DNA from: a bacterium
Lineage (GTDB): Bacteria; Fidelibacterota; Fidelibacteria; Fidelibacterales; Fidelibacteraceae
Direction: 5' to 3'
Assembly: GCA_963676395.1 (NCBI GenBank)
Contig: OY781066.1
Coordinates: 416,001-480,000, forward strand
Length of the DNA: 64,000 bases
The notes beneath the pieces were generated by a model. The model searched no databases. It worked only from the letters and a program-made list of their open reading frames with translations, and was not told where the DNA came from. Both the position numbers and the translations under genes were made by a program. Below, in pieces: positions 9,717 to 19,109 of the stretch. Positions within the stretch are counted from its first letter, which is position 1; each line of letters starts with the position of its first letter.

Positions 9717-11267
9717 ATGAAAGTGAAGCAACTCCTTTCATTACTTATTTTACTCATTTCATCGCAAGCTTTTGCTTTATATCATGATGCCGGCAATTTT
9801 TTTGCGAAACCGGCAGACAGACAAGTCGTAAAATCAAGTTTAGAAACTATGGGCTTGGCTAAACAAAACTCTCGCCCGGAAAGGAATTTCCAATACAGAA
9901 CACCCGAAGGTTATTTTATTATCCACTATGATACAACAGGTATACATGCAGTTCCTATGGATTTCAACCATAATGACAGTCTTCCTGATTTTGTAGTTAA
10001 AGCGGCAGAATATCTGGATGCCTCATATAATACACTGCACCGCGAACTTGGCTTTAGTACACCGCCCGTTGATCACATCGATTCACCGGAAATTGATGTA
10101 TATTTTAAATATGATCTGACTTACTATGGCGTAACAATGTTCAGCAATACCGGGAATACGGATCCCAGGCCTGCATACCTCACATTAAGCACCGAATTAA
10201 ATGATTCTACTACATTTTACACCTATGGTCTTGAAGGACTAAGGGTTACCTGCGCTCATGAGTTATTCCATATTTTTCAACTGGGTTACAGATTTCGCTC
10301 CCAAGATATATTCTATTTTGAGATGTCCTCAGTATGGTTCGAAGAACACATGTATCCTGAAGTAAATGATTATCATTCTTATATTGAAGAGTATTCTCAA
10401 AATTGGAAATACGCCATAAACTCCGGATCCCTGTGGTATAATAATGTTGGATTTAATATGTATATCGATAAACGCTTTTCTACAGAGAGTGTTAATATTA
10501 TAAAAAATATATGGGATAGAATTAGAACAGTTGAAGCCTTGCCTGCTATAAAAGATGAACTGGAGGCGCAAGGCATTACATTTGAAGAAGCTCTTCGTGA
10601 CTGGGGAACAGCGCAAGTACTGTGCGGTTCTTACGCTGCCGAAGGTTTTGCTTATGCTTTTAATGATGCCTCCGATCTTGAGCCAATTTCATTTGACAAT
10701 TATGAAGAAATGATAGTTGAAGGTATGGCCAAAGACATCGGTCTTACATCAAATCCCGGTGTCTTTTATTACAAATTAACAGATCTGCCCGAAAATGTTT
10801 TTCTATTCGATATGATCATTAGCGAGGGCAGCGATGCAAATCTTGTCTGCTTGGATAGCAATCGCTCCGAAATAAAGCACTTTACCGGCTCACCGCTCCT
10901 TGTTGACGGCAATCGGTTCAGAGAGTGTATTTTAGTGATTGGATTAGATGCTGAAAATGCCATCGGCTCACTTTCTATCACAGAAATGTTTTCAGATCAA
11001 TTAGCAAATATTTGGCCTAATCCTTTAGGCCGAAATGAGGAACTCTCTTTATCCTATGTTCTTCTAGAAGAAAGCAATAAAGCAGATATCACCATCTATG
11101 ATCTCAAGGGTAGGAAACTCTATTCCCAATCTTTGGCAACGGCATTAAAAGGTGCCGGCTTACAAGAATTGCGAATACGCCCCCAGAACCTGGCCTCAGG
11201 CATTTATATTATTAGCCTTCATACAGATGAAGGAGTAATGGCAGGAAAATTTACCTTTATCAAGTAA
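9717..11267 (+). CDS. Secreted zinc metalloprotease-like protein (MXAN_6640-like) with T9SS-type C-terminal domain
   Basis: Signal peptide (..SQAFA), HELFH HExxH plus downstream FEMSSVWFEE; C-terminus WPNP..IYDLKGR..LASGIYII..KFTFIK. Confidence 0.75.
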   Translation: MKVKQLLSLLILLISSQAFALYHDAGNFFAKPADRQVVKSSLETMGLAKQNSRPERNFQYRTPEGYFIIHYDTTGIHAVPMDFNHNDSLPDFVVKAAEYLDASYNTLHRELGFSTPPVDHIDSPEIDVYFKYDLTYYGVTMFSNTGNTDPRPAYLTLSTELNDSTTFYTYGLEGLRVTCAHELFHIFQLGYRFRSQDIFYFEMSSVWFEEHMYPEVNDYHSYIEEYSQNWKYAINSGSLWYNNVGFNMYIDKRFSTESVNIIKNIWDRIRTVEALPAIKDELEAQGITFEEALRDWGTAQVLCGSYAAEGFAYAFNDASDLEPISFDNYEEMIVEGMAKDIGLTSNPGVFYYKLTDLPENVFLFDMIISEGSDANLVCLDSNRSEIKHFTGSPLLVDGNRFRECILVIGLDAENAIGSLSITEMFSDQLANIWPNPLGRNEELSLSYVLLEESNKADITIYDLKGRKLYSQSLATALKGAGLQELRIRPQNLASGIYIISLHTDEGVMAGKFTFIK

Positions 11268-11271
11268 TAAA

Positions 11272-11293
11272 GCGACTCGATTTATCGCGTCTC
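11272..11293. repeat. REP-like imperfect palindrome
   Basis: GCGACTCGATTTATCGCGTCTC; shares the GACGCGATAnATCG core with 27861-27888. Confidence 0.45.
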
Positions 11294-11301
11294 AAAATTT
11301 T

Positions 11302-11904
11302 ATGAAATTCCTCACCATAAAATCGCCAGCAGAAAGCAAATTCACCGTCAAGGGAAGCAAATTCTTAGGATATGCCTATCCGGTGGAAAATACAGAAGCA
11401 ATCGAAGACATATTGACCGGTATTCGAAAAAAATACTATGATGCTACTCACCATTGTTATGCATGGCAGTTGGGACTTGATAAAAACATTACTTTTCGGT
11501 ATAACGATGACGGCGAACCGTCCGGAACGGCCGGAAAACCTATTTATGGCGCTATACAGCGCTTAAATCTAACACATGTACTCGTAGTGTCCATTCGTTA
11601 CTACGGCGGCACAAAACTCGGCACAGGCGGACTTATCAAGGCCTACGGACAATCCGCAAGTGATACGCTGGAGCTTGCCACGATCAAAACGGTTGAGATC
11701 GGCGACAGACTCTCATTTACATGTTCTTATGAGCAGCATCCCATTATCATGCGTTTGCTTAATCAATATCATCTCATCAATTTTTCTCAAGATTTTACGG
11801 ACAAAGTTATGATTAATATCGAAGTGGATGAAAATGATACGCAGCGCATCCTGGAAGAAGTAAAGAATGCTACGAATGGGATGATTATAGGAGATATTCT
11901 GTAG
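11302..11904 (+). CDS. yigZ: IMPACT/YigZ family protein
   Basis: KGSKF, DATHHCYAW, DDGEPSGTAG, RYYGGTKLGTGGLIKAY. Confidence 0.93.
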   Translation: MKFLTIKSPAESKFTVKGSKFLGYAYPVENTEAIEDILTGIRKKYYDATHHCYAWQLGLDKNITFRYNDDGEPSGTAGKPIYGAIQRLNLTHVLVVSIRYYGGTKLGTGGLIKAYGQSASDTLELATIKTVEIGDRLSFTCSYEQHPIIMRLLNQYHLINFSQDFTDKVMINIEVDENDTQRILEEVKNATNGMIIGDIL

Positions 11905-11923
11905 GTAGCATCATTTCGAGGAT

Positions 11924-11998
11924 GTACGGGTGATTCGCAAATTGCCCTTTGGTCTCCTACGGGAGGCTTTCTTCTTTGCCATGGCTATGGCAAGCAGG
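11924..11998. repeat. Cluster of three short GC-rich palindromes (degenerate REP-like)
   Basis: GGGTGATTCGCAAATTGCCC; GTCTCCTACGGGAGGC; TTGCCATGGCTATGGCAA. Confidence 0.45.
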
Positions 11999-12035
11999 TG
12001 GGAGCATTTCTTATTTCAAGATCAATTTTAATTTT

Positions 12036-12065
12036 AAAAAGCCACGCAAATGCGTGACTTTTTTT
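12036..12065. terminator. Intrinsic terminator between yigZ and the convergent lipoprotein genes
   Basis: AAAAAGCCACGCA-AA-TGCGTGACTTTTTTT with A/T tracts on both sides. Confidence 0.75.
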
Positions 12066-12095
12066 AATAATCATTGTTTATAATGAATATTAAAC

Positions 12096-12515
12096 TTATT
12101 GTGTAACCGTAAAAGTCCCAATTACTTGACCAACAGTATTTTGGGTACACTTTGCAATAACTCCACTAATTTCACCATCCTCATATATAGCACTTTCAAT
12201 ACCCAAGAAATATTGGCCGATATAACCGGCTTCAAGAGTCATATACATATCACCCTGTACAGTGGGAGAATAATACCCACGTGTAATTAATGCATTTTCC
12301 CATTCCCAAACATCAATAGTTCCAGTTATATCCCAGCTATCACCGAATAAGCTTTCTTCATATTCGCCTTCTAATACTAATGTCAAATCACTTGCTTCAC
12401 CATTAATAGTTGCCGTTCCTGTCCAGGTACCGAACAAAGGAAAAGCCGGCTCCAGTGAGCAACCGACAAAAATAATCATAACGAACATTGCCAAATTTAT
12501 TAGAGCTGATTTCAT
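12096..12515 (-). CDS. Putative lipoprotein, beta-strand rich, function unknown
   Basis: Start moved to MKSALINLAMFVMIIFVG-C (lipobox); GTWTGT motif. Confidence 0.7.
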   Translation of the reverse strand: MKSALINLAMFVMIIFVGCSLEPAFPLFGTWTGTATINGEASDLTLVLEGEYEESLFGDSWDITGTIDVWEWENALITRGYYSPTVQGDMYMTLEAGYIGQYFLGIESAIYEDGEISGVIAKCTQNTVGQVIGTFTVTQ

Positions 12516-12567
12516 TTTTTCCCTTATTCTTTGTATTATTTCTTTTCCAGAACAAATAATAATTAGA

Positions 12568-13344
12568 TTACTCTGTCCCTTTAACAGGAGGTAATCCTTC
12601 TTTCCATCTCTTATTTTCTTTATCAAAGTATAAATCAATGGCTTTATTTGTAATAGGAAACTCGAATTTTGTTTTTTCTAATACGTTTCCAGCAACATCT
12701 GTTTTAGTAGTAATATCAAAAAACGCTACTTTTACATTAATTGACTCTGGTTTAGGCGCTGTGGGAAATATAAGTAAACCACTGTATTCAAATCCGGGTA
12801 GAATTTCTTTATTTAAATCGTTTATGAGAGTATAGTTACGACGATTACTCTCTATTACTCTGGCACCGAAACCTGCGTATGACCAAGAATCATTATTTTC
12901 AATAGATGTAATCCAATCCTTTAATTCATTAATATCACCGATGGCTTTTAAAGGTTCTCTTTCATCTTCAATTAAATAAATCCTGGCATCTTTCATTCTC
13001 AATATATGTTCTGTATTATTTATTATCCTTACTTTGAAAACTGTCATCCCGGCATTACTACGTTCAAACATATAATACCATTGATGACCGTTAAGATCCT
13101 TTGGGAATACAGATGCGGTATATTCATATGCCCCATTGAACAATGAAGGTGATATTTCAAAGTATTCCGGGTAATCATATGTTTCTGCAATTGAAATTGG
13201 GGTTAAATCAATAATAACATTTGATTTTTCAATACTAGGATTATCGTCAATTCTTCTGGTACGAAAAGTATGTGTAGTTGAAAAACAACCAAATAGTAAT
13301 GCCATAAGACTTAAAACTAGACAAAGGTTTACCATCTTTTTCAT
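12568..13344 (-). CDS. Putative lipoprotein, function unknown
   Basis: MKKMVNLCLVLSLMALLFG-C lipobox; AAGGAG RBS. Confidence 0.75.
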   Translation of the reverse strand: MKKMVNLCLVLSLMALLFGCFSTTHTFRTRRIDDNPSIEKSNVIIDLTPISIAETYDYPEYFEISPSLFNGAYEYTASVFPKDLNGHQWYYMFERSNAGMTVFKVRIINNTEHILRMKDARIYLIEDEREPLKAIGDINELKDWITSIENNDSWSYAGFGARVIESNRRNYTLINDLNKEILPGFEYSGLLIFPTAPKPESINVKVAFFDITTKTDVAGNVLEKTKFEFPITNKAIDLYFDKENKRWKEGLPPVKGTE

Positions 13345-13504
13345 TTTTTTCTCCTTATTTTTTTATTAACTATATATCTTTTATTTAATCCATGATTATA
13401 ATACTATATTATTTTTGGGTAGGGCACGCTGATATATATCGATGCCACAACATTTTCAAAAATCATTTATCGTAAACATTCCCTCTCATTGCAGACGTGC
13501 TAAT

Positions 13505-15865
13505 CTACTTCATATATACCATCTTCCTCGTCTCAACAAAATCCCCGGCTTTTAGGGTATATATGTATATCCCCGTCGATAAACCGTGTACAGATGGATC
13601 GAATTTTAATTCATAGTGACCGGCATCCAATTCATCTTCCATTGAAAATACTTCTTTTGAATTTAGATCAAATACCTTCAATGTTACGTCTGAATGTTCC
13701 GGAAGATCATAGGATATTGTTGTACTTGGGTTGAAGGGATTGGGATAGTTTTGTGAAAGGTTATATTCACTTGGTATCTTTGTAATTGAAGTACCAATTG
13801 CTTGAATATATAATTTATAATTTGAGCACCAATATTGACTTTGACTTGGCACATTAACTCCAATATAATATTCTCCAATATTTATTCCATTAACATCTTG
13901 AGGTTTAAAGGTTATTGTTTCTGAACCAGAGCCATTTTCCGACAAAGTAACATTATCGTTTCCGATTTTATAATCACTACTATTAATAGTAGAATTTGAG
14001 GATAAATAGTATTCTATTTCTAAGTTTGAAAGCATACCACCAGCTACTTCATTCGTTATAACAGTTATTGTAATCGTTTCATCCATATTTGTGGGATTAT
14101 TATCAGCTGATATTGATGTTATATTAAGCTCTCCATTAACTTGTGTTAAAGTCAATTGGGTGTTGGTAACCCAATATTCTCCTTCATCGGGTATTGTTAT
14201 CCCGATATAGTAATTACCTGCACTTAAACCACTTATATCTTCTGGAACAAACGTAATATCTTCAGTCCCAGATGCATTTGCAGATAAGGTCACCTGATCA
14301 TCACCCAAATAAAAATCTGAAGTAGTTATAACATTATCAGTTGATAAATAGTATTGAATTCTTCTATTCGCTACTGCTACTCCACCTGCTTCTCGTATAC
14401 TAATTGTAATCGTTTCACTTTCATTTAAGGAACAAGGATTCAGAGTGGCTGCAATTCCTGTCAGTTCTAGATCTGTATATATCGGCGATGTAATTGTAAC
14501 AGGATCAGTTCTCCACCATCTATTACCTTCATCGGGAATCATCACACCCACATAATAATCTCCAGTTGTTAAACCAGTAATATTTTCTGGTTTAAAAGCT
14601 ATATTTTCACTTCCCGAGCCATTTGCAGAAAGGGTAACATAATCATTACCAATATAATAATCACTTGTTGTAATGTCCGTATCAGTTGATAAATAATATT
14701 TTATTTCACGATTTGATACTGATTCACCACCAACTTCTCTTACATCTAAAGTAATTGTTTCATTGACATTCATTGGACATGGATTTTGGCTGAAAGATAT
14801 ACCGGGGATTTCAAGATCCGCATATACGGCCGACTCAATATCAAGTGGTGTTGTATAATTCCAAGATGCCAATTGATCAAGTATTCGAATTGTTAACCAG
14901 TATCTACCAGGCGTTAATGAACTTATACTTTCAGGAACGAAAGATAATGATTCTGTTCCTGAACCATAAGCTGAAAGATTAATATAATCTGAACCAATCT
15001 CGTATGTTATTGAATGATTACTATCATTTGTTAAATGATAAGTCATTTTTAAATTTGATACCGATCCACCTTGGATTTCCCTAACGTTAACTGTAATACT
15101 ACATGATTTATTCATTTTACATGGATTGGGATTAACACTTATATGGTAAACTTCGGCTTCAGCAGCATCCTGAATGGTTAATAAATCATTACGCCAATAA
15201 TATTGATTTTCATCAGGAATTATTATTCCGACGTAATAGTCACCTTTTGTCAATCCACTAACACTATTAGGTCTAAAACTTATTGTTTCGGTACCTTGTC
15301 CATATGCAGATAACGAGACATAATCATCACCAATATAATAATCACTGGTTGTAATTGTTGTATTTGTAGATAAATAATACTGTATTTTACGATTAGAGAC
15401 AGAAGAACCTCCCACCTCGTTAACCGTCAGAGTAATTGTTTCAATTTCATTCATCTTACAGGGATCCTTACTCAATGCAATAGCAGAAATTTGGAGATCA
15501 GAAGCAGTCGGAACTAATGAAACTTTACTTTTTTTTTCACTACCCTCATTAATAAATCCGGATTCTACTGAAGTATTTTCTTCTCTTGGAGATAATATTA
15601 TTTCTTTTTTATACACGGTTTTTTCTGGTAGAGAATTTGTCTGCTCAATTTCTTTAGCTATTATTTCTGAAGATTCTGTTTTAGAGTTTTGAGAATTCAG
15701 TGGAAAAACATTAATTTCAAATATATTTTGTTCACTTTCTTTTTCCGTTTCGATTTTAGGATTCTTTGAAATCTGAGCAGACTCACCACCCATAAGTATT
15801 GTCACGGATAAAAGTATTGAAAATAGAACAAATTTCTTCAGTTTAACACTTTTTACAGTTTTCAT
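13505..15865 (-). CDS. Secreted protein with five tandem ~112 aa CARDB/Ig-like repeats and a T9SS type A sorting domain
   Basis: N-terminal hydrophobic signal; repeated NPC..ETIT..E.GG..YYLSTD..ITTSD..IG.D.V.LSA..G.YY.G units; LSQNYPNPFNPSTTISY..GIYIYTL..RKMVYMK; ATG 15865 behind AAGGAG. Confidence 0.85.
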   Translation of the reverse strand: MKTVKSVKLKKFVLFSILLSVTILMGGESAQISKNPKIETEKESEQNIFEINVFPLNSQNSKTESSEIIAKEIEQTNSLPEKTVYKKEIILSPREENTSVESGFINEGSEKKSKVSLVPTASDLQISAIALSKDPCKMNEIETITLTVNEVGGSSVSNRKIQYYLSTNTTITTSDYYIGDDYVSLSAYGQGTETISFRPNSVSGLTKGDYYVGIIIPDENQYYWRNDLLTIQDAAEAEVYHISVNPNPCKMNKSCSITVNVREIQGGSVSNLKMTYHLTNDSNHSITYEIGSDYINLSAYGSGTESLSFVPESISSLTPGRYWLTIRILDQLASWNYTTPLDIESAVYADLEIPGISFSQNPCPMNVNETITLDVREVGGESVSNREIKYYLSTDTDITTSDYYIGNDYVTLSANGSGSENIAFKPENITGLTTGDYYVGVMIPDEGNRWWRTDPVTITSPIYTDLELTGIAATLNPCSLNESETITISIREAGGVAVANRRIQYYLSTDNVITTSDFYLGDDQVTLSANASGTEDITFVPEDISGLSAGNYYIGITIPDEGEYWVTNTQLTLTQVNGELNITSISADNNPTNMDETITITVITNEVAGGMLSNLEIEYYLSSNSTINSSDYKIGNDNVTLSENGSGSETITFKPQDVNGINIGEYYIGVNVPSQSQYWCSNYKLYIQAIGTSITKIPSEYNLSQNYPNPFNPSTTISYDLPEHSDVTLKVFDLNSKEVFSMEDELDAGHYELKFDPSVHGLSTGIYIYTLKAGDFVETRKMVYMK

Positions 15866-15917
15866 TTTCTTCTTCTCCTTATTTGTAATTAATTGCATTA
15901 TCTGTACTTTTTTACAT

Positions 15918-16181
15918 TTATTCCTTGACGGTTACGCGTAACCGCTGTAACTTTTCTCCGTATTGTTTAGCAAGATCTTCGAAATAGGATAGAACCCGGG
16001 CAGAATTGTCTTTGCGTAAAATCACGCGATTGACGATAGTCTTTTTAACCCCCAACGCACGGGCGACATCGGTCTGTTTTAATCCTGCTACGATCAGCAG
16101 TTCTTTCATATACAAGGTATCGACTTCCTGATTTCCACTTAGAATGGGTGAATCTGGCGTATTCGCAGTTCGAGAACTCAT
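15918..16181 (-). CDS. Small Cro/Ner-like helix-turn-helix protein
   Basis: GLKQTDVARALGVKKTIVNRVI..SARV HTH; divergent from a CI-like gene; AGAGG RBS. Confidence 0.75.
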   Translation of the reverse strand: MSSRTANTPDSPILSGNQEVDTLYMKELLIVAGLKQTDVARALGVKKTIVNRVILRKDNSARVLSYFEDLAKQYGEKLQRLRVTVKE

Positions 16182-16332
16182 AAAACCTCTAGTTTTTCAA
16201 ATTCCGGGTCAGTCTATACTAATTTCTTTATTGAGAGCAGGTAATGATGTAATAAATCGTTTAATTATGTTTAAATGTCTGTCCCTGCCTTATTGGCGCG
16301 TACGATAATGCACTATTTTACACGTCTGTATT

Positions 16333-16361
16333 ATATTATGTATTATCATACACTTTGTCAA
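16333..16361 (-). promoter_or_regulatory. Leftward sigma70 promoter for the Cro-like gene
   Basis: Minus strand TTGACA (16361-16356), 17 bp, TAATAT (16338-16333); overlapping TATAAT at 16335-16330. Confidence 0.6.
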
Positions 16362-16407
16362 GTACTATTATACATTATTTCTTTTTTATTTAATAAAAGG
16401 TACACTT

Positions 16408-17040
16408 ATGAGAATCGCAGATAGATTAAAGATGATCAGAAAAGACCTTGGACTTTCTCAGGAACGTTTCGCCAATGAGCTTGGTATTCATCTGCGTTCT
16501 TATGTCTCTTACGAGAAAGGCGATCGCGCCGTCCCTCAAAAGGTCATGCTTGATCTGATGCATATGGGGTATAATATCCATTGGTTATTAAATGGCTCCG
16601 GTAGCATGAAATTATTGCATACCATAAGTAATGAAACTCATGAATATCCAAGCAAGAATGATATACCGATCTTAAAGAATTTAAGCGCTGTTTTTAAAAA
16701 TAGCATTCTCCCGGACGTAAGCCTGTCCCCTAACACCCTTCCTCGTCCTGAAAACAATCAAGATCCTTTTACATATGCCGTCCAATTAAAATCACTTGGG
16801 GACAAGGGAATGTCTCCGGCATTTCATCCAGATGAATATCTAATTGTTTCACCTCTTGAAACCGTTCTGAATAATGATAAGGCTATCATTAAACTTACAA
16901 ATGGTCGTATTGTTTTTAGGGTCGTTCAGTTCAAAGATTATACAATAGATCTTATACCGGCAAATATTAGCTGTAAAATGGAATCAATACCTTCAGAAGA
17001 ATTGGTTTTTGCTCATAAAGTTGTTTCTACCACAAAGTAG
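16408..17040 (+). CDS. CI/XRE-family repressor with degenerate S24 peptidase-like C-terminal domain
   Basis: RLKMIRKDLGLSQERFANELGI..YEKG..NIHWLLNGSGSM HTH; C-terminal GDKGMSP..YLIVSP..LIPAN S24-like pattern. Confidence 0.85.
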   Translation: MRIADRLKMIRKDLGLSQERFANELGIHLRSYVSYEKGDRAVPQKVMLDLMHMGYNIHWLLNGSGSMKLLHTISNETHEYPSKNDIPILKNLSAVFKNSILPDVSLSPNTLPRPENNQDPFTYAVQLKSLGDKGMSPAFHPDEYLIVSPLETVLNNDKAIIKLTNGRIVFRVVQFKDYTIDLIPANISCKMESIPSEELVFAHKVVSTTK

Positions 17041-17066
17041 CTAAAAATTAGATAAATTTAATTCCT

Positions 17067-17103
17067 AAAAAGAAAAAAGCCGTCCCGAAACTTCAGGGCG
17101 GCT
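17067..17103 (-). terminator. Intrinsic terminator of aspS
   Basis: AGCCGTCC...GGGCGGCT stem preceded on + by an A tract (U tract on -). Confidence 0.7.
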
Positions 17104-17174
17104 ATATATATGTGTGTTATATTTTCGACCAGACAACATCCTTCGTCCCCAGGACGATCTGGCAGGTCTACCTC

Positions 17175-18944
17175 TTAATCTTCAACTTTCAATTGTATTG
17201 AGAGGTCATCCAACTGTTTTTGATTCACACCCGAGGGAGCTCCATCCATCGGAGACTGTGCCGTTGTGGTCTTGGGAAAAGCAATAACGTCTCGAATGGA
17301 ATCTTCGCCGGTCAGGACCATGATCAAGCGGTCTAAACCAAAGGCGATCCCACCATGAGGTGGTGCACCGTATTCAAAGGCACCCAATAAGAATCCGAAT
17401 TTTTCCTGAGCTTCTTCATCGTCAATACCCAGAGCTTTGAACATTCTTTGCTGCAAATCCTTTTGATAGATACGAATGGAGCCTCCACCAATCTCATAAC
17501 CATTCAAAGCCATATCATATGCACGGGCTTTCACGGCTAGAGGATCACTTTCAAGTTTATCGATATCCTCTAGTTTGGGTGAAGTAAAAGGATGGTGACG
17601 AGCAACCAGTCGGCCGCTTTCTTCATCTTTTTCAAATAGAGGGAAATCAGTTACCCAAACAGCCTTATGTTCGTTTTTCTTGATGAGACCAAATTCTTTT
17701 GCTAATCTTGTTCTTACGGCACCCAAAACAATTAATGACGTTTCCCAAGCATCTGCCATGAATAAAATTAGATCACCGGCCTTGGCTTCTGTTTTCTCCA
17801 ATAGAAGTTTTGCAGCGTCTTCATTTATAAATTTTGAGATACCACCTTGTAAACCTTCTTCGTTAACTTTCACAAAAGCCAAACCTTTGGCACCGTATTT
17901 CTTGGCAAATTCGGTGAGTTCATCAATTTTCTTGCGAGAAAAATCTGCAGCACCTGTTACAGGCAATGCACGGATTACACCTCCATTGTCCATAGCAGAA
18001 TGGAAAACCGAAAAATCTGTCGCTCTAGCGAAGTCTTCCACATTCTTGATCTCCATGTCAAAGCGCACATCGGGTTTATCCGACCCGTAGCGTTCCATAG
18101 CATCATGAAAGGTAATTCTTGCTAGCGGCGTGGGGATATCAACGCCGAGCGTTTCCTTAAATACGGTTGAGACCATATTTTCCATGAGTGTTTGAATTTC
18201 CAGTTCATCTACAAAAGACATTTCGCAATCGATCTGGGTAAACTCAGGTTGACGATCCGCACGTAAATCTTCATCCCTGAAACATTTCACGATCTGAAAG
18301 TAGCGATCATACCCCGCAACCATCAGAAGTTGCTTATAGGTCTGAGGAGACTGAGGCAACGCATAGAATTTGTGCTTATTTACACGTGAAGGCACAAGAA
18401 AATCACGAGCACCTTCTGGAGTAGATTTCATTAGCACAGGTGTTTCAACTTCCATAAAGTCATTTTGGGTTAAATAATTACGTACGATCTGAGATGCCTT
18501 ATGGCGCATGAACATATTTTTCTTAAGTTCTTCAGTACGAAGATCAAGATATCGATATTTTAAACGAAGATCTTCTGAACCGGTTTCGCGTTTTGTGATC
18601 TCAAAAGGAGTTGGTATAGCTTTATTTAACAATTCAAAATCGATTGCTTCAACTTCAATCTCACCACTGGGCAATTTTTTATTAACATTTTCTTCGGGGC
18701 GAGCCACAACAGTACCCAAAACAGCGATCACATCTTCGTTATTAAGATGCTTTACCACATCAAGAATTTCTGCTGAAAGATCGTTATTAAAACGAACCTG
18801 AACCAGACCGTAACGGTCTCTGAGGTCGACAAAAAATATTCCACCAAGATCACGACGGGTATTCACCCAGCCATTGATCTTTACAACATTTCCAATATGA
18901 GATTTGTTTAATTCACCACAGCGATGGTCTCGTTTTATACGCAT
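17175..18944 (-). CDS. aspS: Aspartate--tRNA ligase
   Basis: FVDLRDRYG, STPEGARDFLVPSR, LPQSPQ, CFRDEDLRADRQPEFTQID, GAPPHGGIAFGLDR; ATG 18944 behind GGGAG. Confidence 0.97.
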   Translation of the reverse strand: MRIKRDHRCGELNKSHIGNVVKINGWVNTRRDLGGIFFVDLRDRYGLVQVRFNNDLSAEILDVVKHLNNEDVIAVLGTVVARPEENVNKKLPSGEIEVEAIDFELLNKAIPTPFEITKRETGSEDLRLKYRYLDLRTEELKKNMFMRHKASQIVRNYLTQNDFMEVETPVLMKSTPEGARDFLVPSRVNKHKFYALPQSPQTYKQLLMVAGYDRYFQIVKCFRDEDLRADRQPEFTQIDCEMSFVDELEIQTLMENMVSTVFKETLGVDIPTPLARITFHDAMERYGSDKPDVRFDMEIKNVEDFARATDFSVFHSAMDNGGVIRALPVTGAADFSRKKIDELTEFAKKYGAKGLAFVKVNEEGLQGGISKFINEDAAKLLLEKTEAKAGDLILFMADAWETSLIVLGAVRTRLAKEFGLIKKNEHKAVWVTDFPLFEKDEESGRLVARHHPFTSPKLEDIDKLESDPLAVKARAYDMALNGYEIGGGSIRIYQKDLQQRMFKALGIDDEEAQEKFGFLLGAFEYGAPPHGGIAFGLDRLIMVLTGEDSIRDVIAFPKTTTAQSPMDGAPSGVNQKQLDDLSIQLKVED

Positions 18945-19109
18945 AATGCTCCCTTTAATTTCGGGCATAAATTACACGAAAACAGGCATAATTCAAATGG
19001 TTTCTTTAATCATATGTGTAGGAACGCTCAACTTGTCGAGTCCGGAATTACCCAAACTGGATTATATCCAATCTTAACATTTTCAAATTAATGTTATTTC
19101 AAGTAATCA

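What the first reader, a model, noticed from the sequence alone, without database searches (positions are those of the whole stretch)
12096..17040. Orphan phage-type CI/Cro switch wired to a secreted-protein operon instead of phage genes
Seen: a CI-like repressor (16408-17040, +) diverges from a small Cro/Ner-like HTH gene (16181-15918, -) across a 226 bp spacer that holds a strong leftward promoter. 52 bp after the Cro-like stop, on the same strand, come a five-repeat T9SS cargo protein and then two lipoproteins, closed by a terminator. No integrase, transposase, replication or virion gene is present, and the flanks are housekeeping genes (yigZ, aspS). Known: divergent cI/cro is the bistable immunity switch of temperate phages. 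Inference: a prophage switch may have been domesticated to give ON/OFF or heterogeneous expression of a surface or adhesion module.
Basis: partly seen in the sequence, partly recalled or inferred. Interest (0 to 1): 0.78.

Follow-up and report, generated by a model that had tools for sequence, protein, structure and literature searches.

The report
Relic phage switch with swappable cargo
Two regulator genes left over from an ancient prophage have been kept at one chromosomal spot in about ten related uncultured bacterial species, and in this genome alone a secreted surface protein and two lipoproteins sit directly behind one of them.

Summary
A CI-type repressor (16408-17040, +) and a small Cro-position HTH gene (15918-16181, -) diverge across 226 bp. 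That spacer carries a conserved TTGACA -35 box and three operator-like 14-mers. Behind cro lie a five-repeat T9SS cargo gene and two lipoprotein genes, with no terminator until a strong hairpin after the last gene.

The pair is phage-derived. In genome G021 and in IMG/VR contigs its homologues head full lambdoid early regions. At yigZ-aspS it was gained once: 10 genomes with it form one clade (SH-aLRT 100), and outgroups have yigZ next to aspS. Both genes are under purifying selection (dN/dS about 0.03-0.09).

All 14 locus-bound CIs examined lack the Ala-Gly cleavage site that 4 of 4 phage copies keep. This genome's CI has also lost the catalytic Ser and Lys.

The T9SS/lipoprotein cargo is unique to this genome. 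Relatives carry other envelope genes, a RAYT-like transposase, or nothing in the same slot, which starts where phage cII starts.

The cargo is probably wired to the switch, but recently. The pair stays constrained without cargo, so cargo control cannot be why it is kept. The closest known case is DicA/DicC of the E. coli Qin prophage. No expression data were available.

The parts
11302..11904 (+). yigZ (IMPACT family), the left anchor of the locus
   Evidence: TIGR00257 scores 177.6 bits against a cut-off of 168. It is syntenic in 20 of 22 genomes of the genus.
11928..11968 (+). REP-like hairpins next to yigZ. A similar element flanks RAYT remnants in G019.
   Evidence: Terminator-like hairpins. 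The sequence resembles the G019 gap element by eye.
12043..12056 (.). Two-way intrinsic terminator hairpin that closes the minus-strand unit and also yigZ
   Evidence: The fold is -22.4 kcal/mol with z -5.3, and only 1 of 200 shuffles folds as well.
12096..12515 (-). Lipoprotein 2 (139 aa from Met at 12515; lipobox FVGC). No family match.
   Evidence: ORF. No Pfam, NCBIfam, PHROG or PADLOC match. No paralogue in the genome.
12568..13344 (-). Lipoprotein 1 (258 aa; lipobox LFGC). Uncharacterised family.
   Evidence: The nearest Atlas clusters are unnamed hypothetical proteins. It matched 3 of 201 phylum genomes, G000 included.
13505..15865 (-). T9SS type A cargo protein: signal peptide, five all-beta repeats of about 110 aa, and a C-terminal sorting domain
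   Evidence: Por_Secre_tail / TIGR04183. Repeats. The repeat model has pLDDT 63 and only weak CARDB/Ig-like hits, E 0.02 or worse.
15866..15917 (-). Spacer between cro and the cargo. The first ~35 nt are conserved in all locus-bound relatives, followed by an AAGGAG RBS. It is unstructured.
   Evidence: The fold is -1.3 kcal/mol, z 0.27.
15918..16181 (-). Cro-position small HTH regulator (87 aa)
   Evidence: It is 74-90% identical in the 9 relatives with the pair at this locus. dN/dS is 0.025-0.09 in 8 of 9 comparisons with the window and 0.18 against G006.
16237..16288 (.). Conserved inverted repeat GCAGG...CCTGC in the cro leader. Role unknown.
16310..16375 (.). Three operator-like 14-mers (16310-16323, 16340-16353, 16362-16375; GYAYTATYWTACAY). 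They sit downstream of the -10 box, in the -35/-10 spacer, and just upstream of the -35 box.
16333..16361 (-). Leftward PR-like promoter TTGACA-17-TAATAT. The -35 box is invariant in all 11 aligned loci.
16408..17040 (+). CI-type repressor (210 aa). HTH_3 domain plus a degenerate S24 domain with no Ala-Gly site, Ser replaced by Gly, and Lys replaced by Arg.
17175..18968 (-). aspS, the right anchor of the locus

Best explanation
The pair is a two-gene relic of the immunity region of a lambdoid temperate phage: a CI-type repressor, a Cro-position regulator, and a three-operator intergenic switch.

Shown:
- It entered the yigZ-aspS spacer once, in the ancestor of a clade of at least 10 species of one genus. 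Relatives' record titles read Candidatus Neomarinimicrobiota.
- Every other phage gene is gone from the locus. The two regulators and their cis elements have been kept by purifying selection.
- The repressor can no longer cleave itself. All locus-bound copies lack the Ala-Gly site, and this genome's copy has also lost the Ser-Lys dyad.

Inferred:
- By analogy with lambda and with DicA/DicC, CI binds the operators and shuts the leftward promoter. When CI fails, Cro is made and shuts cI, which gives two stable states.
- The leftward transcript runs through cro into whatever occupies the slot about 50 nt downstream, exactly where cII starts in the phage.
- In this genome that slot holds a species-specific insertion: a five-repeat T9SS cargo gene plus two lipoprotein genes, read through to the terminator near 12050. 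The surface module would therefore be OFF under CI and ON in the Cro state.
- This wiring is recent and secondary. The pair is kept just as tightly in species with an empty slot, so it must have a cargo-independent job. The most likely jobs are immunity against related phages or regulation in trans.
For: Phage origin:
- In G021 the homologous pair (CI 43%, Cro about 65% identical) lies between an integrase/restriction-modification block and a CII-like gene. Xis-like, exonuclease, RecT, SSB, replication initiator, RuvC and terminase genes follow.
- IMG/VR contigs show the same layout.

Single gain:
- The order gatA, protease, yigZ, gap, cro, CI, aspS, permease, rSAM is seen in 9 relatives.
- Six other species of the genus have yigZ and aspS 66-159 bp apart.
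- The 10 genomes with the pair at this locus form one clade with SH-aLRT 100 in a 20-row flank tree.
- Locus-bound CIs (14) are monophyletic against phage CIs (4), also SH-aLRT 100.

Selection:
- cro dN/dS is 0.025-0.09 in 8 of 9 comparisons with the window and 0.18 against G006. aspS gives 0.05-0.07.
- CI dN/dS is 0.04-0.09 in the three pairs with unsaturated dS, all between species without envelope cargo, and 0.26 in the closest pair.

Loss of cleavage:
- 14 of 14 locus-bound CIs lack the Ala-Gly site, through a 4-7 residue deletion. 4 of 4 phage-context CIs keep AG, GDSM and FK.
- Ser is replaced by Gly in 4 of 14 and Lys by Arg in 6 of 14. The window's CI has both changes.

Switch anatomy:
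- The -35 box is invariant, and three 14-mers lie on and around the promoter.
- 3 of the 5 genome-wide matches to the motif lie here.

Wiring:
- The cro-cargo spacer is 52 nt, unstructured, and has an RBS.
- No sigma-70-like hit of 9/12 or better lies on the minus strand between the PR-like promoter and the cargo ATG.
- There is no terminator until after lipoprotein 2.
- In G000, G004, G006, L085, L086 and L087 the first slot gene starts about 50 nt after cro. The phage cII-like gene starts 47 nt after cro.
Against: - There are no transcript data: no RNA run is listed. Co-transcription, repression and bistability are therefore all inferred.
- A promoter type that the sigma-70 scan cannot see could drive the cargo independently. 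The 160-nt gap before lipoprotein 1 could also hide one.
- The promoter scan as a whole is not enriched over shuffles.
- The cargo-independent function is not identified. No other operator cluster was found in the genome.
- The known phage relatives use a related but different operator core, and their CI recognition helix differs. Immunity against them is therefore unproven.
- The Cro assignment rests on position. Its family and fold matches are weak.
Confidence: 0.6

Rival explanations
1. The switch was domesticated and is maintained in order to give ON/OFF or heterogeneous expression of envelope and surface genes. The slot behind cro is a socket for exchangeable surface cassettes.
For: - Three unrelated sets of envelope genes sit in the same slot, co-oriented with cro. 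G000 has the T9SS cargo plus two lipoproteins. G004, G006, L085, L086 and L087 have a 270-aa-type lipoprotein, with a PEGA lipoprotein and small membrane proteins in those contigs that extend far enough. G015 and L084 have membrane proteins.
- The first gene starts about 50 nt after cro with an AAGGAG RBS.
- yigZ 3' fragments in G004 and G015 point to cassette exchange.
Against: - G002, G007 and L079 have an empty slot of 92-145 bp. G017 and G013 carry only a RAYT-like transposase, and G019 and G003 only its remnants.
- dN/dS among these cargo-less species is as low as elsewhere: cro 0.05-0.08 and CI 0.04-0.09.
- The G015 slot genes are separated from cro by a yigZ fragment on the other strand.
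Confidence: 0.2
2. The adjacency is incidental. The cargo landed in a recombination hot spot between yigZ and cro and is expressed from its own signals. The relic pair only regulates itself, or acts against incoming phages.
For: - The gap is hypervariable, from 92 to 4013 bp, and holds REP/RAYT elements and yigZ fragments.
- The cargo has lower G+C (0.30-0.35) than its flanks (0.37-0.45).
- The cargo is found almost nowhere else.
Against: - Only about 17 nt of non-conserved sequence precede the cargo ATG.
- No terminator lies between cro and the cargo.
- The scan found no promoter-like site there.
Confidence: 0.15
3. The pair is decaying prophage junk with no function.
For: - The S24 catalytic residues and the cleavage site are lost.
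- All other phage genes are gone.
Against: - Both reading frames are intact at every locus where the contig covers them, in 10 genomes and 9 metagenome loci.
- dN/dS is far below 1 while dS is saturated.
- The promoter box and operator positions are conserved.
Confidence: 0.03

Closest known systems
DicA/DicC immunity region of the cryptic Qin prophage of E. coli K-12, controlling dicBF (bioRxiv 10.1101/2023.04.14.536235; passages read)
   Same: - A divergent CI-like and Cro-like pair retained from a defective lambdoid prophage.
- The repressor lacks the Ala-Gly bond needed for RecA-mediated cleavage.
- Three operators lie between the genes.
- The paper reports bistable, spontaneous switching in a subpopulation that depends on the Cro-like gene.
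   Different: - Qin still carries many phage genes, and its regulated cargo (dicB, dicF) is phage-derived and toxic.
- Here only the two regulators survive, they are fixed across about 10 species, and the downstream genes are non-phage envelope genes that differ between species.
- The cargo here lies behind cro (the PR side). In Qin it sits at a PL-like promoter.
- Nothing has been tested experimentally here.
CI/Cro switches of lambda, 434 and P22 (textbook knowledge; summarised in the introduction of the same paper)
   Same: - The gene order cI, divergent cro, then a cII-like gene in the phage relatives.
- A CI built from an HTH domain plus an S24 domain. The 434 repressor is the best solved match.
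- Three operators over divergent promoters.
   Different: - No self-cleavage site and no catalytic dyad in this genome's CI.
- No phage genome attached.
- The leader from the promoter to cro is about 145 nt long and contains conserved inverted repeats.
RacR/YdaS of the Rac cryptic prophage (mentioned in the discussion read; PMC11879457 seen only as a search listing)
   Same: An SOS-insensitive repressor and a Cro-like partner kept in a defective prophage. A prophage transcription factor is reported there to act on host operons.
   Different: Rac retains other phage genes. No trans targets were found here.
SinR of Bacillus subtilis (recalled from memory; 1b0n appears only as Foldseek hit rank 34, E 0.9)
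   Same: A phage-repressor-type HTH protein that governs matrix and surface genes heterogeneously.
   Different: SinR has no Cro-type partner, no divergent three-operator switch and no S24 domain. There is no evidence of common descent.

Membership tests
Lambdoid phage CI/Cro immunity switch | Divergently transcribed repressor and small HTH gene that share one intergenic control region | tested here: met
   ORFs at 16408-17040 (+) and 15918-16181 (-), separated by a 226 bp spacer
Lambdoid phage CI/Cro immunity switch | Repressor built from an N-terminal Cro/C1-type HTH and a C-terminal S24 (LexA-like) domain | tested here: met
   HTH_3 at 32.1 bits against a cut-off of 23. The S24 match is partial (profile positions 42-108) and borderline: 22.6 and 23.8 bits against a cut-off of 23.3. 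phrog_4 'transcriptional repressor' scores E 3e-16 over residues 1-208.
Lambdoid phage CI/Cro immunity switch | RecA-stimulated self-cleavage: an Ala-Gly site plus a Ser-Lys dyad | tested here: not met
   The window's CI has a deletion at the AG site, GDKGMS in place of GDSM, and FR in place of FK. 14 of 14 locus-bound copies lack AG, while 4 of 4 phage copies keep all three features.
Lambdoid phage CI/Cro immunity switch | Several operators overlapping the two promoters | tested here: met
   Three 14-mers lie at 16310, 16340 and 16362, around the -35 and -10 boxes. 3 of the 5 genome-wide motif matches are here, although the motif was derived from these same sites. Binding was not tested.
Lambdoid phage CI/Cro immunity switch | Embedded in a phage genome (integrase, replication and virion genes) | tested here: not met
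   The flanks are housekeeping genes syntenic across the genus. The nearest integrase match is about 278 kb away. Homologues in G021 and in IMG/VR contigs are embedded in phage genomes.
Cro-type regulator | Small HTH protein in the cro position, followed by cII | tested here: inconclusive
   The position is met in the phage relatives. HTH_3 reaches only 16.9 bits against a cut-off of 23. Foldseek hits to XRE/434 Cro-type folds all have E above 0.1. There is no match among deposited phages.
Cryptic-prophage immunity relic (DicA/DicC kind) | Non-cleavable repressor plus Cro-like partner retained in the host chromosome | tested here: met
   the comparison with DicA comes
Cryptic-prophage immunity relic (DicA/DicC kind) | Repressor controls a downstream operon; bistable switching | not testable with these tools
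   Only the anatomy is available: no terminator, a 52-nt spacer and an RBS. No RNA run is listed.
T9SS type A cargo | C-terminal Por_Secre_tail sorting domain | tested here: met
   TIGR04183 at 36 bits against a cut-off of 23; PF18962 at 30.2 bits against 27
T9SS type A cargo | T9SS machinery present in the genome | not tested
   Indirect only. About 70 further tblastn matches to the cargo's C-terminal region (query residues 625-797) lie in the genome.

The most novel reading that the evidence does not exclude
A phage-derived bistable switch has become a host-owned expression socket. The two regulators and the ~35-nt element behind cro stay fixed. Envelope-gene cassettes (T9SS adhesin-like cargo, lipoproteins, small membrane proteins) are swapped in and out by recombination between the yigZ and cro anchors. 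This would give each species, and perhaps each subpopulation, a different switchable surface. The non-cleavable CI would make the switch respond to something other than DNA damage.
Probability: 0.2. Interest if true: 0.7.

Novelty: new variant of a known kind. Interest (0 to 1): 0.45.

Why it matters
Retained prophage immunity regions that regulate host-relevant genes are known from E. coli laboratory strains. There they sit in large, young, strain-specific cryptic prophages.

This case is stripped to the bare switch and is old enough to be shared by about ten species of an uncultured phylum. It shows a clear molecular signature of uncoupling from the SOS response.

It offers a natural experiment on which parts of a CI/Cro switch selection keeps once the phage is gone. 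It also shows how new genes, here cell-surface genes, come under such a switch.

If the cargo-independent function is immunity, this would be a minimal, vertically inherited anti-phage element. No defence model in PADLOC-DB 2.0 matched it beyond a weak HTH 'control protein' hit on CI.

Tried and rejected
- RNA evidence: no RNA holder is listed for 12000-17100.
- Rfam over 11800-17300: only sub-threshold terminator-like hits.
- Earlier findings of this scan: nothing by place, by sequence or by words.
- Trans regulon:
  - Genome-wide search for the operator motif and for clusters of the palindromic core found no second convincing cluster.
  - The two extra 14-mer matches lie inside coding regions.
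- RNA structure in the cro leader: RNAalifold on 9 leaders gave -10.45 kcal/mol and one compensatory pair. This is too weak to call.
- Cro fold: no Foldseek match below E 0.1. The PDB profile search gave only weak Aca1-type hits with E above 0.7.
- Cargo repeat: the model has pLDDT 63. CARDB and Ig-like hits have E 0.02 or worse, so the fold remains unassigned beyond all-beta. Pfam gives only a sub-threshold Wzt_C hit.
- Lipoproteins: no family in Pfam, NCBIfam, PHROGs or PADLOC. Atlas neighbours of lipoprotein 1 are unnamed.
- Defence models: none match the cargo of G000, G004 or G015.
- Deposited phages: CI matches at 30.5% identity or less, and Cro has no match.
- aspS dN/dS rows involving L031 are a frame error of mine and should be ignored.
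- Literature searches found no paper on a CI/Cro relic in Marinimicrobia or one tied to T9SS cargo. These were three keyword searches of the held library only.
Full report
**1. The observation**

One search lists the ORFs as described. The CI-like gene is at 16408-17040 (+), a small gene at 15918-16181 (-), a 797-aa ORF at 13505-15898 (-), and two further minus-strand ORFs at 12568-13344 and 12096-12638. yigZ (11302-11904, +) and aspS (17175-18968, -) flank them.

- The CI-like protein has HTH_3 (32.1 bits, cut-off 23) and a partial Peptidase_S24 match. Its N-domain is closest to the phage 434 repressor among solved structures, E 7.5e-6.
- The small protein has only weak HTH evidence: HTH_3 at 16.9 bits (below cut-off) and phrog_1373 at E 1e-4. 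Its AlphaFold model has pLDDT 83 and four helices. The model's best Foldseek neighbours are XRE-type HTH proteins, including 434 Cro, but all have E above 0.1.
- The large ORF carries a T9SS type A sorting domain and five repeats of about 110 aa.
- The two small ORFs have lipoboxes, read by eye, and no family match.
- The unit ends in a strong hairpin terminator, -22.4 kcal/mol with z -5.3.

I make two corrections. The cargo most likely starts at ATG 15865, which follows an AAGGAG. The ATG at 15898 lies in spacer sequence that is conserved in relatives with no gene there. Lipoprotein 2 most likely starts at 12515.

**2. Where the pair comes from**

Both proteins are single-copy in this 2.34-Mb genome.

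- CI matched 13 of 41 genomes (G000 included) at E 1e-5 or better. Cro matched 12 of 41 at E 1e-3 or better. For Cro, all matches are in the genus: 11 of 21 relatives, and 0 of 19 genomes outside it.
- In G021 the homologous pair (CI 43%, Cro about 65% identical) is the immunity region of a complete-looking lambdoid prophage. The gene order is integrase, a membrane moron, a methylase/restriction block, CI, divergent Cro, a CII-like gene, an excisionase-like gene, exonuclease, RecT, SSB, replication initiator, RuvC, and small and large terminase.
- Two IMG/VR contigs with identical sequence over the 12.6 kb fetched, plus a third contig, carry the same pair. One of them was annotated and shows the same early region, with CI 42% and Cro 68% identical.

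**3. How it sits in the genus**

tblastn with the window's proteins shows the order gatA, MXAN-type protease, yigZ, gap, cro, CI, aspS, permease, radical-SAM in G019, G002, G004, G003, G007, G017, G013 (two contigs), G015 and G006.

- Six other species of the genus (G020, G016, G001, G008, G021, G005) have yigZ and aspS 66-159 bp apart and no pair there.
- G018 has a 434-bp gap and G010 a 1.4-kb gap, both without the pair.
- G012 and G014 end at the contig edge. G009 and G011 gave no yigZ match.
- A tree of concatenated gatA, yigZ, aspS and permease puts the 10 genomes with the pair at this locus in one clade with SH-aLRT 100. The tree has 20 rows; G013's second contig was dropped because it has only 159 residues.
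- In a CI tree the 14 locus-bound copies are monophyletic against 4 phage copies (SH-aLRT 100), and most groupings follow the species tree.

This is one insertion followed by vertical descent. No locus in any relative holds a prophage.

**4. Selection**

Nei-Gojobori estimates are as follows.

| Gene | Comparison | dN/dS |
|---|---|---|
| cro | window against 8 of 9 relatives at the locus (dS 1.0-2.3, near saturation) | 0.025-0.09 |
| cro | window against G006 | 0.18 |
| aspS | window against relatives | 0.05-0.07 |
| CI | G002, G003, G017 pairs (unsaturated dS; all without envelope cargo) | 0.04-0.09 |
| CI | closest pair | 0.26 |

Cro is 85-90% identical in 8 of the 9 relatives and 74% in G006. 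It is thus as conserved as aspS (81-88%). CI is 47-72% identical. Neutral decay is excluded.

**5. The repressor has been uncoupled from self-cleavage**

In an alignment of 18 CIs, the 4 phage-context proteins keep an Ala-Gly site, the GDSM serine and the FK lysine. All 14 locus-bound proteins have a 4-7-residue deletion that removes the Ala-Gly site.

- Ser is Gly in 4 of 14: G000, G019, G013 contig C38 and L087.
- Lys is Arg in 6 of 14: G000, G019, G003, G006, L086 and L087.
- The window's CI carries all three defects.

I left out near-duplicates of genomes already in the alignment (L080-L084), the partial CI of L090, and G015's CI, which lies on a separate contig.

The genome still encodes a full S24 protein with Ser and Lys motifs. 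It is UmuD-like and sits next to a Y-family polymerase. It is the only other S24 match in the genome.

**6. The switch itself**

- In all 11 aligned intergenic regions, phage ones included, TTGTCAA (that is, TTGACA leftward) is invariant.
- In the window it pairs with TAATAT at 17 nt.
- Three 14-mers matching GYAYTATYWTACAY (core TGTAY-N4-RTACA) lie at 16310, 16340 and 16362. These positions are just downstream of the -10 box, in the -35/-10 spacer, and abutting the -35 box.
- The motif has 5 matches in the genome against 1.8 expected. Three are here and the other two lie in coding sequence. The motif was derived from these sites, so the count shows only that no second cluster exists.
- Relatives have sites at the same positions with slightly different half-sites (GCAC/GTGC). 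The phages use ACAC-N4-GTGT.

**7. What lies behind cro**

The 30-35 nt after the cro stop are conserved in all locus-bound copies. After that the content differs between species.

| Genomes or contigs | Slot content |
|---|---|
| G002, G007, L079 | nothing (92-145 bp) |
| G017, G013 | a RAYT-like IS200-type transposase |
| G019, G003 | remnants of that transposase |
| G004, G006, L085, L086, L087 | a 270-aa-type lipoprotein; also a PEGA lipoprotein and small membrane proteins in those that extend far enough |
| G015, L084 | two membrane proteins, then a stray yigZ 3' fragment |
| G000 | T9SS cargo and two lipoproteins |

- G000's cargo was found in none of the 9 relatives at the locus and none of the 12 metagenome loci.
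- In the phylum sample, lipoprotein 1 matched 3 of 201 genomes and the cargo's repeat region 2 of 201, G000 included. None of those matches lies next to the pair.
- The cargo has no paralogue in the genome apart from about 70 matches to the region of its sorting domain.
- Its G+C is 0.30-0.35, against 0.37-0.45 in the flanks.
- Where a gene fills the slot directly (G000, G004, G006, L085-L087), it starts about 50 nt after cro with an AAGGAG. The cII-like gene of the G021 phage starts 47 nt after cro.

**8. Is the cargo wired to the switch?**

- The 52-nt cro-cargo spacer is unstructured: -1.3 kcal/mol, z 0.27.
- The 160-nt gap before lipoprotein 1 (150 nt of it folded) and the 52-nt gap before lipoprotein 2 hold no terminator-like structure.
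- A strong terminator follows lipoprotein 2.
- On the minus strand, the scan finds no promoter-like site of 9/12 or better between the PR-like promoter and the cargo start.

The anatomy therefore fits one transcript covering cro, the cargo and both lipoprotein genes. This is inference. No RNA data were available, and promoters of another type would be missed.

**9. Reading**

The pair is a minimal, old, host-fixed relic of a phage immunity switch. Its repressor no longer answers to RecA-type cleavage. The surface module of this genome is a recent passenger that most likely comes under the leftward promoter.

Species with an empty slot keep both regulators under the same constraint, so the pair's own value must lie elsewhere. 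Immunity to related phages is the most economical guess, but the known phage relatives appear to use different operators. Regulation in trans found no support in the operator search. Why Cro, of all parts, is the most conserved remains unexplained.

**10. Comparison with what is known**

The closest described system is DicA/DicC of the Qin cryptic prophage. I read passages of bioRxiv 10.1101/2023.04.14.536235. That paper describes:

- a CI-like repressor that lacks the Ala-Gly bond;
- a Cro-like partner and three operators;
- an antirepressor;
- spontaneous switching in a subpopulation.

The present case differs in four ways. It is reduced to the bare switch. It is shared by about ten species. 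The genes in its downstream slot are not phage genes and are exchanged between species. The cargo lies on the cro side.

Keyword searches found no report of such a relic in Marinimicrobia or one tied to T9SS cargo. I rate it a new variant of a known kind, of moderate interest.

Noticed in passing
window 16237-16288: An inverted repeat GCAGG...CCTGC lies in the cro leader. It is present in 9 of 9 locus-bound leaders aligned, with one two-sided compensatory change in G006 (GACAGG/CCTGTC). A second interleaved repeat, GATACG...CGTATC, is present in the relatives but missing in the window. It could be an RNA element or protein-binding sites.
   Followed up: partly
window 15884-15917; L032 10301-10347: The conserved element just after the cro stop contains operator-like half-sites (GTAC-N5-ATGC in the window). 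At the same place the G021 phage has a perfect palindrome, GCACAATTGTGC. It may be a fourth operator or a nut-like hairpin in front of the slot gene.
   Followed up: partly
L031 9827-9916 (G004); L038 2373-2528 (G015); L084 6394-6549: Stray copies of the yigZ 3' end lie inside the variable gap, in addition to the intact yigZ. This suggests that gap contents are exchanged by recombination that uses yigZ as an anchor.
   Followed up: no
L036 4432-4998 (G017); L015 2490-3056 (G013); remnants in L029 and L034; window 11928-11968: A RAYT-like IS200-type (Y1_Tnp) transposase and REP-like hairpins occupy the gap in several relatives. A similar hairpin element lies next to yigZ in the window.
   Followed up: partly
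L037 (G013 contig C38) and L015 (G013 contig C146): One MAG holds two versions of the locus. The C38 flanks place it next to G017, but its CI does not group with the G017/C146 CIs. This is either a strain mixture or turnover of CI alleles.
   Followed up: no
G000:C1:967538-969249 (L062 212-1923): A UmuD-like S24 protein (148 aa, with Ser and Lys motifs present) lies next to a Y-family polymerase. It is the only other S24 match in the genome, so no canonical LexA was seen with this family model.
   Followed up: partly
L033 (G005), about 11096-12781: A diverged copy of the pair lies away from yigZ-aspS. Its cro is split into two frames (two HSPs), and the spacer to CI is 784 bp and holds extra small ORFs. 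It is probably a decaying prophage.
   Followed up: no
L089 3827-10874 (metagenome contig): A Cro homologue (83% identical over residues 8-82) sits without the CI next to an integrase, an FRG-domain protein and a restriction-modification fusion. The Cro family therefore also travels in another kind of island.
   Followed up: partly
window 9717-11267: An MXAN_6640-type HExxH metalloprotease with its own T9SS sorting domain lies directly upstream of yigZ. It is syntenic across the genus.
   Followed up: no
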